IMG/VR virus record: IMGVR_UViG_3300010399_000005
Span: 17,642 to 81,641 of that record
Strand: one strand, 5' to 3'
Length of the DNA: 64,000 nucleotides
Source of the DNA: a virus
The notes under the pieces are model-generated. The model had not been told where the DNA came from. It saw only the letters and a list, made by a program, of their open reading frames with translations, and searched no databases. Shown piece by piece: positions 39,993-57,705 of this stretch. A program made the position numbers and the translations under genes. How positions within the stretch are numbered: the stretch's first letter is position 1; every line of letters begins with the position of its first letter.

Positions 39993-40594
39993 GGGTTCTC
40001 AAAGCACAGCACACGCGCGTAGTCGATGTCGACCGCGGGCATGCGGATCAGTTCACGGTAGAGCTCGTGGTTCCACGCTGCCCCGGCGTCGGCACGGTGA
40101 GCATGAGTGTCCTTGAACTGGTCGAACCCGGGAAGCGAGTTCTCGTGAGGAAGCACTTCCTCGGGATCCAGCCCAACCAGCCACGCACGGTCCGCGAGGT
40201 CGATGCAGCGCATCGGCCAGCCGTCCGGTCGCTCGGTCAGCGGGCCGTAGATCTGGCTCAGCAGCACCCAGTCGTAGTGATCATAGTACGCGTAGAAGGT
40301 CGGCTCCTCGCCGACGAAAGCGACGATCTCGCTGGCGATCTGTGCGCGTGGTGTCGTCACCTCGAGCCAGCGCTTGTGAGCGAGGTCGACGTCCTCGATC
40401 TTCATCGCATCGATCCACGAGTCGGTGTACACGATGACGTGATCATGCACCCAGTCACTGGCTTGCGATAGGTTCGCCTCACGAGGCTCGGCATAGTACC
40501 GCGCACCGTCATCGCGCTCCAGACCGATCGACACTAGGATGAGCTCACTCCCGGTGTCAATGAACTCCGTGTCCAGAAATATCTTATGTCCCAT
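39989..40594 (-). CDS. 3'-5' exoribonuclease (DEDD, Rv2179c/RNase AS-like)
   Basis: FLDTEF, LVSIG, YYDHYDWV, P...IDL, H.A..GA.W motifs. Confidence 0.82.
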   Translation of the reverse strand: MGHKIFLDTEFIDTGSELILVSIGLERDDGARYYAEPREANLSQASDWVHDHVIVYTDSWIDAMKIEDVDLAHKRWLEVTTPRAQIASEIVAFVGEEPTFYAYYDHYDWVLLSQIYGPLTERPDGWPMRCIDLADRAWLVGLDPEEVLPHENSLPGFDQFKDTHAHRADAGAAWNHELYRELIRMPAVDIDYARVLCFENP

Positions 40595-40616
40595 TCCTTC
40601 TCATCTCCTTGGTGTG

Positions 40617-40808
40617 TAGTGGGCGTCGACGGACTCGAACCGCCGAAACATTCGTCTGGCTCAGTCTCCCCGCTACCCTCGTCCTCCATGGCGGACGTTC
40701 GACATACTCGCATCAACTCGGCATAGCCCACCGAGCGCTTTCGTCTAGGACGGTTGAACAGCCTATGCCACCAGACTGCTCTCGGTCTTCCCTACCTCCG
40801 AGACGCCC
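40617..40808 (-). ncRNA. 192-nt tRNA/tmRNA-shaped RNA
   Basis: Perfect 7-bp acceptor stem GGGCGTC/GACGCCC plus ACTA; T-arm GGCGG-TTCGAGT-CCGTC; helix GTCTGG/CCAGAC enclosing an internal domain of about 115 nt; fills the intergenic gap. Confidence 0.7.
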
Positions 40809-40814
40809 TTGAAC

Positions 40815-41225
40815 TCAACCCGTGAACGACGGCTGCGCCGTGACCGCCTGGACGACGAACCGCGTCGGAGCCTGGACCTGCGGCGGAGCCGTCTCATCGG
40901 GCACCGTGAAGTTGTTCACCGTGACATTGCGCTCGACGGTCCGCTCGATCACGTTCGGCTGCGGCGCCGGCTGCGGCACCGGCACGACCGAGATAACAGG
41001 CACGACGACGGTGGCGACCGGAGCGGTCGTGGTTGGAGCAGGCGCCGTGGTAGTCGTCGTCGTGGAGGTGCACGTCGTACGAACGGGGAGACACCGAAGA
41101 CACGGCACCGGACCAATGAGGTCGGTCTGGACGAGCTCGGTCGGCTCGGCGAACGCCGCACTTCCCACACCAATGGTGAGAGCAGCGGCCGCGATGACAA
41201 AGAGAAGAAGCTTGCGAGGATTCAC
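40815..41225 (-). CDS. Secreted Pro/Thr-rich protein
   Basis: AAAAGGA RBS; signal peptide ending AFA; poly-Thr/Pro linker; C-terminal PSFTG. Confidence 0.65.
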   Translation of the reverse strand: MNPRKLLLFVIAAAALTIGVGSAAFAEPTELVQTDLIGPVPCLRCLPVRTTCTSTTTTTTAPAPTTTAPVATVVVPVISVVPVPQPAPQPNVIERTVERNVTVNNFTVPDETAPPQVQAPTRFVVQAVTAQPSFTG

Positions 41226-54364: not shown

Positions 54365-54431
54365 TCGGGTGAGCCGGAGGACTTCGGTTATCATTGGAAG
54401 AACGCCGGAGTCCACTTACTCGCTCACCCGA
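54365..54431 (+). ncRNA. Short Y RNA-like RNA 1
   Basis: TCGGGTGAGC/GCTCACCCGA terminal stem, CGGAG opposite CACTTACTC, upper stem GACTTCGG/CCGGAGTC. Confidence 0.75.
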
Positions 54432-54462
54432 CCCCCGTGTCACCCTCCAACTAAGATCTCAC

Positions 54463-54534
54463 GGTCCGGGTCGGAGGACGTCGGTTATCAGCTTATCACC
54501 TGAACCCCCCGGCGTTCACTCACTCATCCGAACC
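54463..54534 (+). ncRNA. Short Y RNA-like RNA 2
   Basis: GGTCCGGGT/ATCCGAACC stem, CGGAG opposite CACTCACTC, upper stem GACGTCGG/CCGGCGTT; same layout as RNA 1 with compensatory changes. Confidence 0.75.
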
Positions 54535-54590
54535 ACCTTCTCAGACGCTGGAGACCTTTCAGCGGGTCACCAGGTCGACGAGAGGGATAC

Positions 54591-54740
54591 GTGTCCCCGG
54601 GCCGGAGATGGTCGCTTACCAGGAAACCGAAGACGGACGTTCGAGTCGTCCCACCCCTACGCTAGATGAGTCACAGGGGTGTAGCTCAGTGGTAGAGCAT
54701 CGGTCTTTAGCGGTCTTCACTCACTTGTCTAGGGTCACAC
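54591..54740 (+). ncRNA. yrlA: YrlA-type Y RNA with circularly permuted tRNA-like domain
   Basis: ACCGA stem, T-arm GGACG-TTCGAGT-CGTCC, closed acceptor stem CACCCCT/AGGGGTG, TA, D-arm GCTC-AGTGGTA-GAGC, TCGGT; flanked by CGGAG...CACTCACTTG; 24 nt upstream of Ro60. Confidence 0.9.
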
Positions 54741-54764: not shown

Positions 54765-56420
54765 ATGATGACGGATCCACTGCGACGCATCTCGACGCGA
54801 AGCACGCCTCAGACCGAGCCCATCCCGGGTCGCACCGACCAGGTGCGCAACGCTGCCGGCGGCTACGTCTTCCAGGTCGACGACTGGCGGCGCCTGCGGC
54901 GCTTCCTGGTGCTGGGCACCGAGGGTGGCACGTACTACACCTCGGAGCAGAAGCTCACTGCCGAGAACGCCCAGACCGTCCTGGGACTCATCGAGCACGA
55001 CGGTCAGCGTGTCGTGCGTGAGCTTCTCGACGTCTCACTGCGTAACCTCGCTCCTCGACAGCAGCCGACGCTCTTCGTCCTGGCCGCGTGCACCGCTGCC
55101 TCGGACCCCGGAGTCCGACGCTTCGCCCTTGACGTGCTTCGTCAGCTGTGCCGCACGGGCTACCACCTGTTCACGTTCGCCAACTACGTGGAGCAGTTTC
55201 GAGGCTGGGGTCGTGGACTTCGTGACGCCGTCGCCGAGTGGTACACCGGTCAAGCACGTGATCGTCTCGCACTGCAGGCGGTGAAGTACCGCCAGCGCGA
55301 CGGCTGGACGCACCGTGACCTCCTGCGGCTCGCGCATCCCAAGACCGATGATCCGGTGCGCGACGCGATCTTCAAGTGGATCACCCACCGTGAGGACATC
55401 ACCTGGGAGAACGGTGGAAGTAAGCTTCCCAACGTCATCGCGGGCTTCGAACTCGTCCAGCGTGTGACCGACCCCAAGCGGGTCGCCCAGGCTGTGTTGG
55501 ATCACGACCTTCCCTGGGAGTGCCTGCCCGACGCGACGCTGCGCTCTCCCGAGGTCCTGGAGGCGCTGGTCCCGACCATGGGACTCACCGCACTCACCCG
55601 CCAGCTCGGGCGCATGGCCTCGACGGGCGCACTCACCTCGGGCTCACAGCTCGAGAAGTTGGTGCTCGAGCGGCTGCGGGTTCCCACCGCGTCCGACGAG
55701 CGTCACATCGGTGAGTTCCTCTCGCGGAACGCCAACCCCTTCGTGCAGTCGAAGGTCCACCCCTTCCAGCTGCTCCTCGCCGAGTCGACCTACCAGGCTG
55801 GACGAGGTGTTCGAGGGTCGCTGACCTGGAAACCCACCAGTCGCATCGTCGACGCCCTGGACGCGGGCTTCTACGCGGCGTTCGGGTCACTTCAGCCGTC
55901 CGACCGCACGACACTCGTGGCACTGGACGTCTCGGGGTCGATGGACTTTAGCACGATCCTGAACACGCACATCACGCCGCGTGTGGCGTCCGCCGCCATG
56001 GCGCTGATCACGCTGCGCTCCGAGCCCGACGCTCACGTGATGGCGTTCAGTGACACGCTGGTGCCGGTGAGCATCTCGCCTCGCCAGCGCTTGGATGATG
56101 TGGTGCGCACGATCTCGAACATCCCCATGGGCGGCACCGACTGCTCACTGCCGATGCATTACGCTCTCGGCCGTAAGCTCCATGTCGACACGTTCGTGGT
56201 GTACACGGACAACGAGACGTGGGCCGGTAGGGAGCATCCCACGCAGGCGCTCCGGCACTACCGCGAGAAGATCAACCCCTCCGCCCGTCTGGTCGTCGTG
56301 GGTCTGACCGCCACCGACTTCACCATCGCCGATCCCAAGGACCCGGGCACGCTCGACGTCGTCGGCTTCGACGCCTCGGCGCCGCAGGTCATCGCCGACT
56401 TCAGTGCGGGGAGACTGTGA
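54765..56420 (+). CDS. rsr: Ro60/Rsr TROVE-domain RNA-binding protein
   Basis: QVRNAAGGYVF, RLRRFLVLGTEGGTYY, KYRQRDGWTHRDLLRLAHP, vWA MIDAS DVSGSM, GGTDCSLPM, YTDNETW, LDVVGFD. Confidence 0.96.
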   Translation: MMTDPLRRISTRSTPQTEPIPGRTDQVRNAAGGYVFQVDDWRRLRRFLVLGTEGGTYYTSEQKLTAENAQTVLGLIEHDGQRVVRELLDVSLRNLAPRQQPTLFVLAACTAASDPGVRRFALDVLRQLCRTGYHLFTFANYVEQFRGWGRGLRDAVAEWYTGQARDRLALQAVKYRQRDGWTHRDLLRLAHPKTDDPVRDAIFKWITHREDITWENGGSKLPNVIAGFELVQRVTDPKRVAQAVLDHDLPWECLPDATLRSPEVLEALVPTMGLTALTRQLGRMASTGALTSGSQLEKLVLERLRVPTASDERHIGEFLSRNANPFVQSKVHPFQLLLAESTYQAGRGVRGSLTWKPTSRIVDALDAGFYAAFGSLQPSDRTTLVALDVSGSMDFSTILNTHITPRVASAAMALITLRSEPDAHVMAFSDTLVPVSISPRQRLDDVVRTISNIPMGGTDCSLPMHYALGRKLHVDTFVVYTDNETWAGREHPTQALRHYREKINPSARLVVVGLTATDFTIADPKDPGTLDVVGFDASAPQVIADFSAGRL

Positions 56421-56620
56421 AGCTCATACGACTTGCTCCATACAACTACGAGCTGATCATACTCGATCGTTGGCGAGTACCCTACGCTCCGGCATACGGG
56501 TGGCGGCGAGTACGCTACCCATATAAGAGCGGTGATGTCACGGTGCTTGGTCCTCAAGTGTTCGTCTCTGAGGATGAGACCGTCATCAACTGGCGTGGCG
56601 TCAACTATGGGAGGTTGTGA
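56417..56620 (+). CDS. Small hypothetical protein coupled to Ro60
   Basis: GTGA overlap with the rsr stop; LGPQVF...VINWRGVNY motif. Confidence 0.6.
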   Translation: MKLIRLAPYNYELIILDRWRVPYAPAYGWRRVRYPYKSGDVTVLGPQVFVSEDETVINWRGVNYGRL

Positions 56621-56630
56621 TAGAGTAGAT

Positions 56631-57060
56631 GTTTCTCCACAAGTCTGCTGGCACTCGCTCCGCGCTACACGGAGGAGCATGTGAGACTCAGCTTAATCGT
56701 ACAGGCATCACGACGAGGCACCGCACCTAGAGGCGAAGTTCAGTGATGTTGTAGGCGAGCTTCGTGAGACTTCCCGGTCACTGAAACCAGCCAGACTGGT
56801 GTAGACCGCTGACGAGCGTGGAGGGTCGGGTCCTCCTCGGGAAGCGCATCAAGCTGCGAGAGTCCCCATCCCTACCTCCCCCATTCGCGCGTGGGGACTC
56901 TCCAGCTTGGTACACTAGACCCCGTCGGTTGTCGCACTGGGAGCCACCCTCCTTCAGTGAAACTTCGACCAGAGTGATGGTCGAAGCCGACGTCGTGGGA
57001 GTCTCCATCCGGTCTCACTCTCCCTCTTCCACCGGGTGGAGGCTCCTCGATCGGTGACCG
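56631..57060 (+). ncRNA. Large structured non-coding RNA candidate
   Basis: No convincing ORF; at least six helices, a long-range closing stem 56775-56784/57051-57060 and loop-loop complementarity; extended -10 TGA-TAGAGT at 56618-56626. Confidence 0.6.
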
Positions 57061-57135
57061 TTGGACCACACTTCGGTGTAGACTAAGACACAACATTGAC
57101 TTGGACAACCTGTCCCCCGGACACGAGGAACACTG

Positions 57136-57705
57136 ATGAGAAGCTTCACTCAGGACTACGTCCTGCGCGACTACGACTTTGACACGGGTCGTATGCGAAT
57201 GGTCTCGTTCAATGGTAGACGCGTCGCCGACGCCTCCAGCCGTGAGATTGAGCACAGCCACTCGCCCGACCGCAAGGCCCAGCGTGGTGAGCGCTGCTCG
57301 GCGTGCCGCTGGCTGGAGGTGCGGATCTACATCGCTAACGACGAGTCGTCTGGCACCGCCTACGTTCTCGAGACGGTCGGTCGCTCCCTGGTTGACGGCG
57401 AGCACGATCGCTTCAGGACCCGGCGGTTCCGTGACCCATGGCTGGTCATCGCCAAGCTGGCCAAGCGTCACGATGACACGACGTTCCTCCCTCTAGTCGC
57501 TCAACGCGCCCTCTCGGAGGCCGCCGAGTACGACGGTCGACTGGCCGAGCTTCTCGACACACTCGAACTCGACTCTCACGAAGTTCGCTACACCGACGAC
57601 TCCGAACGAGGCGTCGACGTCGTGGAGCCTGAGGTCGAGGATGAGGACCGATACAACCTCATCGACCCAGCGCGTCACCCGAGCGCTCACGTGTACGGAG
57701 GTTAG
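57136..57705 (+). CDS. Hypothetical protein
   Basis: GAGGA RBS; C..CRW.E..IY...YV..TVG.S.V.GE pattern. Confidence 0.7.
   Translation: MRSFTQDYVLRDYDFDTGRMRMVSFNGRRVADASSREIEHSHSPDRKAQRGERCSACRWLEVRIYIANDESSGTAYVLETVGRSLVDGEHDRFRTRRFRDPWLVIAKLAKRHDDTTFLPLVAQRALSEAAEYDGRLAELLDTLELDSHEVRYTDDSERGVDVVEPEVEDEDRYNLIDPARHPSAHVYGG

What the first reader, a model, noticed from the sequence alone, without database searches (positions are those of the whole stretch)
40617..40808. 192-nt mini-tmRNA-shaped RNA directly upstream of a 3'-5' exoribonuclease
Seen on the minus strand: a perfect acceptor stem GGGCGTC/GACGCCC plus ACTA, a canonical T-arm with TTCGAGT, and a GG- and GAC-containing D-like region. 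A long helix (GAGAGCA-GTCTGG with CCAGAC-GAA-TGTTTC) replaces the anticodon arm and encloses about 115 nt with further stems (GGCATAG/CTATGCC, CGTCC/GGACG). Known: this topology matches tmRNA, but tmRNAs are about twice as long and have G3-U70; here it is G3-C70 and I see no hydrophobic degradation tag. Inference: a new tRNA-like RNA (ribosome-rescue variant, decoy or intron-bearing tRNA) co-transcribed with a DEDD RNase and WhiB.
Basis: partly seen in the sequence, partly recalled or inferred. Interest (0 to 1): 0.76.

Follow-up and report, generated by a model that had tools for sequence, protein, structure and literature searches.

The report
tRNA-Val-shaped phage RNA, new family
An uncultured actinobacterial phage and one relative encode a conserved, roughly 190-base folded RNA with the outline of a valine tRNA, in which a long branched arm replaces the anticodon arm; it is not a tmRNA or an intron-bearing tRNA and may work with the phages' Ro60/Y-RNA system.

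Summary
Window 40617-40808 (minus strand) is a real, conserved RNA gene. One homologue (72% identity over all 192 bases) lies in a related 80.7-kb phage record, G001. A 42-pair model is 97.6% paired across the two copies, and 11 pairs changed on both sides.

The outer shell is tRNA-like:
- The T arm matches actinobacterial tRNA-Val(UAC) at 17 of 17 bases.
- 5 of 7 acceptor pairs are the same.

There is no anticodon arm. It is replaced by helix P2, two invariant blocks and a three-way junction.

It matches no Rfam family and no default ARAGORN call. Both copies have G3-C70 and a real D stem, so it is not a tmRNA. No anticodon stem survives in G001, so it is not an intron-bearing tRNA.

The link to the exonuclease is not conserved: G001 has no such gene, and its copy starts 19 bases after the Ro60 stop codon. 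Both phages encode Ro60 and Y RNAs. One distal arm is a stem, CGAA bulge, stem, like Ro60 docking sites.

My best guess (0.4) is a tRNA-mimicking partner RNA of the Ro60 system. No further member was found.

The scan had already noted this same stretch (e1-6137762), and it has noted tRNA-shaped Y RNAs on other DNA, but not this family.

The parts
40617..40808 (-). Whole tRNA-shaped RNA (RNA positions 1-192; window coordinate = 40809 minus RNA position)
   Evidence: 133 of 193 alignment columns are identical to the G001 copy. Similarity stops at both ends, except for 7 bases upstream.
40802..40808 (-). Acceptor stem, 5' strand (RNA 1-7)
   Evidence: Seven Watson-Crick pairs with RNA 182-188. 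Invariant between the two phages (0 changes in 18 columns counting ACUA). 5 of 7 pairs are as in actinobacterial tRNA-Val(UAC).
40782..40801 (-). D arm (RNA 8-27) with conserved GGGAAG in the loop
   Evidence: helix 2: pair 10-25 changes G-C to U-A. Pair 12-23 is A.A here and C-G in G001.
40770..40776 (-). Helix P2, 5' strand (RNA 33-39)
   Evidence: helix 3: 7 pairs, 3 changed on both sides, 100% paired.
40746..40769 (-). Conserved block A (RNA 40-63). It holds the short frame GCU GUU CAA CCG UCC UAG and the 5' strands of the tentative helices P3a and P3b
   Evidence: 3 changes in 24 columns. P3 pairs 50-52/143-145 and 56-62/131-139 are predicted by RNAalifold but lie in invariant sequence, so they are untested apart from C57-G138 becoming U.G.
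40699..40747 (-). Distal arm (RNA 62-110): short stem P4, CGAAAG bulge (40738-40743), upper stem with hairpin CUCGG/CCGAG
   Evidence: Pairs 64-108 and 65-107 change on both sides (helix 6). A second register, 64-66/102-104, is also possible. GACGAAAG fits the published GNCGAAN0-1G motif. The stem-bulge-stem fold appears.
40680..40697 (-). Hairpin H4 (RNA 112-129), 5 pairs with an 8-base loop
   Evidence: helix 7: 4 of 5 pairs changed on both sides, 100% paired.
40661..40679 (-). Conserved block B (RNA 130-148), containing GGGTAGCGGGGAGACT
   Evidence: 1 change in 19 columns. No second copy or antisense match in the window at up to 3 mismatches.
40654..40660 (-). Helix P2, 3' strand (RNA 149-155)
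   Evidence: helix 3.
40628..40644 (-). T arm (RNA 165-181), loop UUCGAGU
   Evidence: Identical at 17 of 17 bases to the T arm of tRNA-Val(UAC) genes of sampled Actinomycetes. Its second pair is G.U here and U.G in G001.
40617..40627 (-). Acceptor stem 3' strand (RNA 182-188), discriminator A and CUA
   Evidence: Invariant in both phages. CCA is not encoded.
40810..40816 (-). Conserved 7-base leader GAGTTCA, one base upstream of the RNA; it overlaps the stop codon of the upstream ORF
   Evidence: The only flank similarity in alignment A2. Its role is unknown.
54765..56420 (+). Phage Ro60 gene, the possible protein partner (inferred, not shown)
   Evidence: Pfam TROVE 113.6 bits and vWA_Ro60 222.8 bits. 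In G001 the orthologue (68% identity) ends 19 bases before the RNA.

Best explanation
This is a stand-alone noncoding RNA gene derived from a tRNA-Val. It keeps the acceptor stem, D arm and T arm. The anticodon arm is replaced by a roughly 125-base rod: internal loop, 7-bp helix P2, two invariant blocks that probably pair, then a three-way junction with two arms.

It has no promoter or terminator of its own and fills an intergenic gap exactly. I infer that RNase P cuts it out of a long transcript at the 5' end, that the 3' end is trimmed, and that CCA is then added, as was shown for Mycobacterium smegmatis YrlA.

I propose that it is a tRNA-mimicking partner RNA of the phage's Ro60/Y-RNA system. 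The distal stem, CGAA bulge, stem arm would dock Ro60, and the tRNA-Val-like end would engage a host factor that recognises tRNA acceptor and T arms.

Shown here: conservation, fold, tRNA-Val ancestry, absence of an anticodon arm, and position next to Ro60 in the relative. Inferred: end processing, Ro60 binding and the downstream effect.
For: - Homologue with 11 compensatory pairs.
- Two single-base indels in alignment A3 rule out a protein-coding reading.
- T arm 17 of 17 and acceptor 5 of 7 pairs as in tRNA-Val(UAC). 6 of the 8 fetched host loci were called tRNA-Val, and 44 of 401 sampled genomes matched.
- In G001 the RNA starts 19 bases after the Ro60 stop codon, on the same strand.
- Both phages have TROVE/vWA Ro60 and clusters of Y-like RNAs.
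- A complete relative without Ro60 (G003) also lacks the RNA.
- RNA 64-71 here, GACGAAAG, fits GNCGAAN0-1G. CGAAAG is conserved in both copies, in a stem-bulge-stem arm. A 'CGAA motif in a large internal bulge between stems' was the criterion used to find phage Yrl RNAs that bind a phage Ro60 (PMC12135203, passages).
- M. smegmatis YrlA is cut by RNase P and receives CCA (PMC4201824, passages).
- No promoter-like or terminator-like site was found beside the RNA.
- Other Ro60 phages carry tRNA-shaped RNAs with a Y module next to Ro60 (L211, L241, L255).
Against: - In this window the RNA lies 14 kb from Ro60 and on the other strand.
- 0 of 48 other Ro60-encoding viral records hold a member, and none of the 80 Ro60 loci except G001's does. 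So it is not a general Ro60 partner.
- The co-occurrence rests on one lineage of two close relatives.
- Model R2, built from four Y RNAs of these two phages, finds nothing on the RNA's strand (best 7.5 bits, E = 2, elsewhere).
- Rfam YrlA and Y RNA models give no hit at E up to 10.
- The first G of the motif is A in G001. The window's second motif match (RNA 153-160) is lost in G001.
- The window's own Y RNAs use CGGAG, not CGAA.
- CGAA is short enough to occur by chance.
- There are no expression or binding data.
Confidence: 0.4

Rival explanations
1. A Ro60-independent tRNA-Val mimic or decoy. After processing, the RNA presents an invariant tRNA-Val-like acceptor and T arm to a host protein that reads those parts. 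Candidates are an end-modifying or end-cleaving defence enzyme, the CCA enzyme, RNase P or a synthetase. The long arm would bind something else.
For: - The acceptor stem plus ACUA is invariant: 0 of 18 columns changed against 31% overall, while other helices covary. That suggests sequence-specific reading of this end.
- The T arm is identical to host tRNA-Val.
- The RNA moves between genome contexts as a discrete module.
- It is absent from 48 other Ro60 phage records.
- There is no Y-module hit.
Against: - No candidate partner gene travels with it.
- A decoy for anticodon nucleases is excluded, because there is no anticodon loop.
- Its position directly after Ro60 in G001 would then be coincidence.
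Confidence: 0.3
2. A cis-acting processing or punctuation element, or a decaying tRNA-Val gene, with no trans function. RNase P and 3' processing at the tRNA-like fold would separate or stabilise the flanking mRNAs.
For: - It fills the gap between two ORFs exactly. The upstream stop codon is 6 bases before it and the next gene's ribosome-binding site about 8 bases after it.
- No promoter-like or terminator-like site was found beside it.
Against: - A 125-base interior with invariant blocks and covarying helices is far more than a processing signal needs.
- The flanking genes differ completely between the two phages.
Confidence: 0.1
3. A miniature tmRNA-like ribosome-rescue RNA, charged with an amino acid other than alanine and encoding a 5-codon tag.
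For: - The topology resembles tmRNA: acceptor, D region, long helix, T arm.
- Both copies hold a short frame that starts with GCU right after a UAG triplet and ends at the same place in a stop. The stop is UAG here and UAA in G001, so a stop is kept through a change.
Against: - G3-C70 in both copies.
- A paired D stem with covariation.
- No pseudoknots.
- No tmRNA hit by ARAGORN in three modes or by Rfam at E up to 10.
- Only 7 bases separate P2 from the frame.
- Most of the frame lies in predicted helices.
- The two codon changes are non-synonymous and the tag has no hydrophobic end.
- From general knowledge, ValRS depends on the anticodon, so charging of a tRNA-Val shell without an anticodon is doubtful.
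Confidence: 0.05
4. A tRNA gene interrupted by an intron or insert that is removed to give a working tRNA.
For: At an 80% score threshold, ARAGORN builds a tRNA-Pro(GGG) with a 102-base intron.
Against: - Default and relaxed intron modes find nothing.
- The proposed anticodon stem (CAGU/ACUG) is not kept in G001, where the competing helix P2 covaries instead.
- No group I or other intron family is hit.
- 115 bases is below the size of known self-splicing tRNA introns (general knowledge).
Confidence: 0.03

Closest known systems
YrlA-type Y RNAs of bacteria and phages (Rfam RF02553; Chen et al. 2014, PMC4201824)
   Same: - A tRNA-mimicking noncoding RNA with D and T arms in a genome that encodes Ro60.
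- In G001 it lies directly beside Ro60 on the same strand.
- It carries a GNCGAAN0-1G-like motif.
- In an actinobacterium, YrlA is processed by RNase P and receives CCA.
   Different: - The wiring is the reverse. Here the 5' and 3' ends form the acceptor stem and the interior is closed.
- It is about 80 bases longer.
- No hit to the YrlA model or to a model of these phages' own Y modules.
- The window copy is 14 kb from Ro60.
tRNA-shaped RNAs with a Y module in the anticodon arm beside phage Ro60
   Same: - Free acceptor ends and intact D and T arms.
- An insert in place of, or on, the anticodon arm.
- Located in Ro60-encoding phages.
   Different: - Those are 118-124 bases long and carry a recognisable GNCG...UUAYC docking module.
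- This RNA is 192 bases long with a branched interior, has no UUAYC, and shows no sequence similarity to them.
tmRNA (Rfam RF00023, RF01849-RF01851, RF02544)
   Same: A tRNA-like domain whose anticodon arm is replaced by a long helix enclosing further structure. It also contains a short frame starting with an alanine codon.
   Different: - G3-C70 rather than G3.U70.
- A true D stem.
- About half the usual size.
- No pseudoknots.
- No model hit.
- A tRNA-Val-like rather than tRNA-Ala-like acceptor.
Actinobacterial tRNA-Val(UAC)
   Same: - T arm identical at 17 of 17 bases.
- 5 of 7 acceptor pairs the same.
- Discriminator A.
- The last two bases of the variable loop are the same.
   Different: - No anticodon stem-loop.
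- The D arm differs.
- Acceptor pairs 6-67 and 7-66 are changed on both strands.
Valine-accepting tRNA-like structures at the 3' ends of plant viral RNAs (recalled, not tested here)
   Same: A viral RNA that imitates tRNA-Val.
   Different: Those are 3' ends of genomic RNAs, built with a pseudoknotted acceptor stem and an anticodon mimic. This is a discrete gene in a DNA phage with a normal acceptor stem and no anticodon mimic that I could identify.

Membership tests
tmRNA | G3.U70 wobble pair in the acceptor stem (alanine identity) | tested here: not met
   Pair 3-70 (alignment columns 3 and 187) is G-C in both copies.
tmRNA | Recognition by tmRNA models | tested here: not met
   ARAGORN with -m, -m -ps, -m -ps80 and -mt finds nothing. 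Rfam gives no tmRNA hit at the gathering threshold or at E up to 10.
tmRNA | Tag reading frame with a resume codon and a stop | tested here: inconclusive
   A 5-codon frame starting with GCU and ending in a stop is kept in both copies (UAG here, UAA in G001). Both internal changes alter the amino acid, and the frame lies in predicted helices.
tmRNA | D region without a stem, plus pseudoknots around the frame | tested here: not met
   The D stem is paired, with one compensatory change. No pseudoknot was needed or found. Only 7 bases separate P2 from the frame.
Intron-containing tRNA | Exons that rebuild an anticodon stem-loop | tested here: not met
   ARAGORN intron modes find nothing at default settings. 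The 80%-threshold model's anticodon stem is broken in G001.
YrlA / Y RNA | Encoded within about 4 kb of Ro60 on the same strand (criterion in PMC4201824) | tested here: inconclusive
   Met in G001, where the RNA starts 19 bases after the Ro60 stop. Not met in the window, where it is 14 kb away on the opposite strand.
YrlA / Y RNA | GNCGAAN0-1G (CGAA) motif in a bulge between two stems | tested here: inconclusive
   The window has GACGAAAG at RNA 64-71. G001 has ACCGAAAG, so the first G is lost. CGAAAG is conserved and lies between P4 and the upper stem.
YrlA / Y RNA | Match to family models | tested here: not met
   No YrlA or Y RNA hit at E up to 10. Model R2, built from four Y RNAs of these phages, gives no hit on the RNA strand. 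A permuted module could not be tested with a covariance model.
YrlA / Y RNA | Binding to Ro60 | not testable with these tools
   Needs pull-down or gel shift. The complex predictor here does not take RNA.
tRNA | Acceptor stem, D arm and T arm in order with a canonical T loop | tested here: met
   Model R1 aligns genuine tRNAs through its shell. The T arm equals that of tRNA-Val.
tRNA | Anticodon stem-loop | tested here: not met
   None can be drawn in either copy. ARAGORN at default settings and Rfam RF00005 give no call.

The most novel reading that the evidence does not exclude
The RNA receives CCA and is aminoacylated, despite G3-C70 and the lack of an anticodon. It then acts on ribosomes as a minimal, non-alanine trans-translation RNA whose 5-codon frame (GCU ... 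stop, kept as UAG or UAA) is read. That would be a phage-made rescue or tagging system half the size of any bacterial tmRNA.
Probability: 0.05. Interest if true: 0.9.

Novelty: new variant of a known kind. Interest (0 to 1): 0.6.

Why it matters
Phage and bacterial RNAs that imitate tRNA (tmRNA, YrlA) each opened a field. This is a third layout: a true tRNA-Val shell with open acceptor ends and a large, conserved, branched domain where the anticodon should be.

If it docks Ro60, it would show that phage Ro60 systems use more than one class of partner RNA. It would also give a tractable handle on what the tRNA-like end of Y RNAs is for, which is still an open question.

If it works without Ro60, it points to a host protein that reads the tRNA-Val acceptor end and that the phage needs to occupy.

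Either way it is a clean candidate for an Rfam family once more members are found.

Tried and rejected
**Searches for further members, all negative**
- blastn against GenBank phages with 401 bases, and with the 131-base interior at E up to 10 (98 records, each covering 18-19% of the query, in coding genes of enterobacterial phages).
- Exact or degenerate patterns in IMG/VR. True hits were G001 only; the rest were coding sequence or ordinary tRNAs.
- Model R1 over 80 Ro60 loci, 5 related records and 48 whole Ro60 phage records.
- A profile nhmmer search over all 395 loci held, 3.19 Mb. The next best hit after the two copies had E = 0.28.
- blastn in 401 sampled Actinomycetes genomes: tRNA-Val 3' ends only.

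**Relatives sought through the exonuclease**
- Searches gave only distant homologues (45% identity or less), with no RNA in the loci held at that time.
- Closer exonuclease homologues exist (77%, 60% and 54% identity), but their contigs could not be fetched.

**Sequencing runs**
- No RNA holder is listed. The one run found is the likely source sample.
- Laying it on the stretch gave one identical contig and no variants.

**Readings rejected**
- The GGCATAG/CTATGCC helix and the CGUC-CUA-GACG triloop hairpin are not kept in G001.
- ARAGORN's tRNA-Pro-with-intron model.
- A hammerhead-like core: I checked this by eye, it is not conserved, and Rfam has no hit.
- A Ro60 docking site at the D-arm CGGAG plus the 3' CACUA: it is on the wrong sides of the stem and is not conserved.
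- Antisense targets of blocks A and B in the window: none.

**Left unresolved**
- The pairing of blocks A and B: RNAalifold's 50-52/143-145 plus 56-62/131-139, or 47-53/131-137.
- The register of P4: 106-108 or 102-104.

**Literature**
- Three searches and passages of PMC4201824, PMC7824862 and PMC12135203 gave no description of this RNA.
- Supplementary tables of PMC4201824, which list phage YrlA candidates, were not open to me and could bear on that.

Full report
**What is there.** On the minus strand of window 40617-40808 the sequence shows a perfect 7-bp acceptor stem, U8 and a D region with GGG. It also has a 5-bp T stem with loop UUCGAGU directly abutting the acceptor 3' strand, a discriminator A and then CUA. 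About 125 bases lie between the D arm and the T arm.
- The RNA fills the gap between a 136-aa ORF and the next gene. That ORF's stop codon is 6 bases upstream.
- The next gene is a 201-aa DEDD exonuclease (Pfam Rv2179c-like, 18.9 bits, below the cut-off of 27). WhiB, terminase and portal follow it.
- No promoter-like or terminator-like site lies beside the RNA.
- The window is part of an 81.6-kb IMG/VR virus record with terminal repeats. Its terminase is at most about 43% identical to those of Streptomyces phages.

**Known families.**
- ARAGORN at default settings calls nothing here.
- Rfam gives no match at the gathering threshold in the whole window.
- At E up to 10 over 40300-41100, Rfam gives only three weak, unrelated hits off the RNA.
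- ARAGORN's intron, tmRNA and mitochondrial modes find nothing. Only at an 80% threshold does it draw a tRNA-Pro(GGG) with a 102-base intron and an odd long variable arm.
- Folding energy is unremarkable (z = -0.85).

**A homologue.** No relative turned up through the exonuclease.

The terminase led to four related viral contigs. One of them is G001, 80.7 kb, with a terminase 77% identical. It holds a full-length copy of the RNA: 72% identity over 1-192, E 5.7e-20. Similarity ends at both RNA ends, apart from GAGTTCA just upstream.

The 60 differing columns out of 193 are very unevenly spread:

| Region | Changed columns |
|---|---|
| Acceptor stem plus ACUA | 0 of 18 |
| Block B | 1 of 19 |
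| Block A | 3 of 24 |
| Hairpin H4 | 12 of 18 |
| RNA 64-111 | 25 of 48 |

Two single-base indels exclude a coding reading.

**Structure.** A 42-pair model was counted on the alignment. It comprises the acceptor stem, D stem, P2 33-39/149-155, P3 50-52/143-145 and 56-62/131-139, P4 64-66/106-108, H4 112-116/125-129 and the T stem.
- 97.6% of cells are paired and 11 pairs changed on both sides.
- Slid controls give 0-1, and 0 of 500 shuffles reach the observed values. With two related sequences the shuffles overstate significance; the slid control is the fairer one.
- Compensatory changes: P2 has 3, H4 has 4 of 5, P4 has 2, and the D and T stems have 1 each.
- P3 lies in invariant sequence and is therefore only predicted. 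It gives a tidy three-way junction with one-base linkers. In the window copy it is also the minimum-energy fold of the isolated interior.
- An alternative pairing, 47-53/131-137, cannot be excluded.

**tRNA ancestry.**
- blastn of the RNA against 401 sampled Actinomycetes genomes matched 44 of them, mostly over RNA 163-190 at 89-93% identity.
- 6 of the 8 fetched loci are tRNA-Val(UAC) by ARAGORN.
- The T arm is identical at 17 of 17 bases. The acceptor stem shares 5 of 7 pairs, and the other two are changed on both strands.
- Only 2 of those 6 host genes encode CCA, so the hosts add CCA enzymatically.
- Model R1, built from the two copies, picks up ordinary tRNAs by deleting its interior.
- Neither copy has anything that can be drawn as an anticodon stem-loop.

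**Context.** In G001 the RNA begins 19 bases after the stop codon of a Ro60 gene, on the same strand (TROVE and vWA_Ro60 domains).
- Four Y-like RNAs lie upstream of that Ro60.
- The window has the orthologous Ro60 at 54765-56420. Ahead of it are two small Y RNAs and a YrlA-like RNA: weak Rfam hits to RF01656 and RF02553, and 9 of 18 predicted pairs compensatory in a four-sequence alignment.
- A complete but more distant relative, G003, has neither Ro60 nor the RNA.
- Against a general link: none of 48 other Ro60-encoding viral records has a member.

**Is there a Ro60 docking site?** Chen et al. 2014 (passages read) define a 5'-strand motif, GNCGAAN0-1G. They note that Ro60 mainly contacts that strand. 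A 2025 study of a Thermus phage Ro60 (passages read) found binding RNAs by a CGAA motif in a large bulge between two stems.
- For: in the window, RNA 64-71 is GACGAAAG. In G001 it is ACCGAAAG. The conserved CGAAAG sits between P4 and an upper stem.
- Against: a covariance model of these phages' own Y modules finds nothing on the RNA strand.
- Against: the window's second motif match (RNA 153-160) is lost in G001.
- Against: the window's own Y RNAs use CGGAG, not CGAA.
- Other Ro60 phages do carry tRNA-shaped RNAs with clear Y modules next to Ro60 (L211, L241, L255). Earlier notes of this scan led me to look for these. The present RNA is larger and unlike them in sequence.

**Verdict.** This is a real structured RNA gene (about 0.9) of a family with two known members. 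It is derived from tRNA-Val and lacks an anticodon arm.
- It fails the defining tests for tmRNA and for an intron-bearing tRNA.
- The most likely function (0.4) is a tRNA-mimicking partner of the phage Ro60/Y-RNA system, processed like a tRNA.
- A Ro60-independent acceptor-end mimic is nearly as likely (0.3).
- A tmRNA-like reading cannot be fully excluded, because a 5-codon frame beginning with GCU and ending in a stop is kept in both copies (0.05).
- I found no description of it in three literature searches.

Noticed in passing
window 54365-54730 (+): Two small Y RNAs (weak RF01656 hits, 32.8 and 29.5 bits) and a YrlA-like RNA (RF02553, 35.5 bits) lie ahead of the Ro60 gene. ARAGORN's only call in the window, tRNA-Gly(acc) at 54583-54660, overlaps the YrlA-like RNA and is probably not a tRNA gene.
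   Followed up: partly
L189 5510-5940 (+), in G001: Four Y-like RNAs lie upstream of Ro60 in the relative. All carry G(U/C)CGAA, whereas the window's three carry G(U/C)CGGAG. This is a lineage-wide switch in the presumed Ro60 contact motif between two phages whose Ro60 proteins are 68% identical.
   Followed up: partly
L211 7765-7882 (+); L241 5743-5866 (+); L255 3771-3894 (+): tRNA-shaped RNAs of 118-124 bases with free acceptor ends and a loop-closed Y-RNA-like module (GNCG..., UUACC) in place of the anticodon arm. They sit right beside Ro60 genes of other viral contigs.
   Followed up: partly
L271 3976-4106 (-) and 2976-3116 (-): Two tRNA-like genes of 131 and 141 bases in a 133-kb viral contig. 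They seem to keep an anticodon arm and carry an extra insert of about 50 bases before the T arm.
   Followed up: no
window 56421-57135 (+): A stretch of about 715 bases without a convincing gene lies between Ro60 and the next conserved ORF (57136-57705). G001 has the tRNA-shaped RNA plus about 450 bases at the same place. The two stretches share a box, CGGTGTAGACTA, near their ends.
   Followed up: partly
IMG/VR: 142 viral stretches encode a relative of this Ro60 at 40-66% identity, so Ro60 is common in uncultured phages.
   Followed up: no
proteins P0002-P0004: Exonuclease homologues at 77%, 60% and 54% identity exist on NCBI and Logan contigs that I could not fetch. Their upstream regions are the most likely place for further copies of the RNA.
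   Followed up: no
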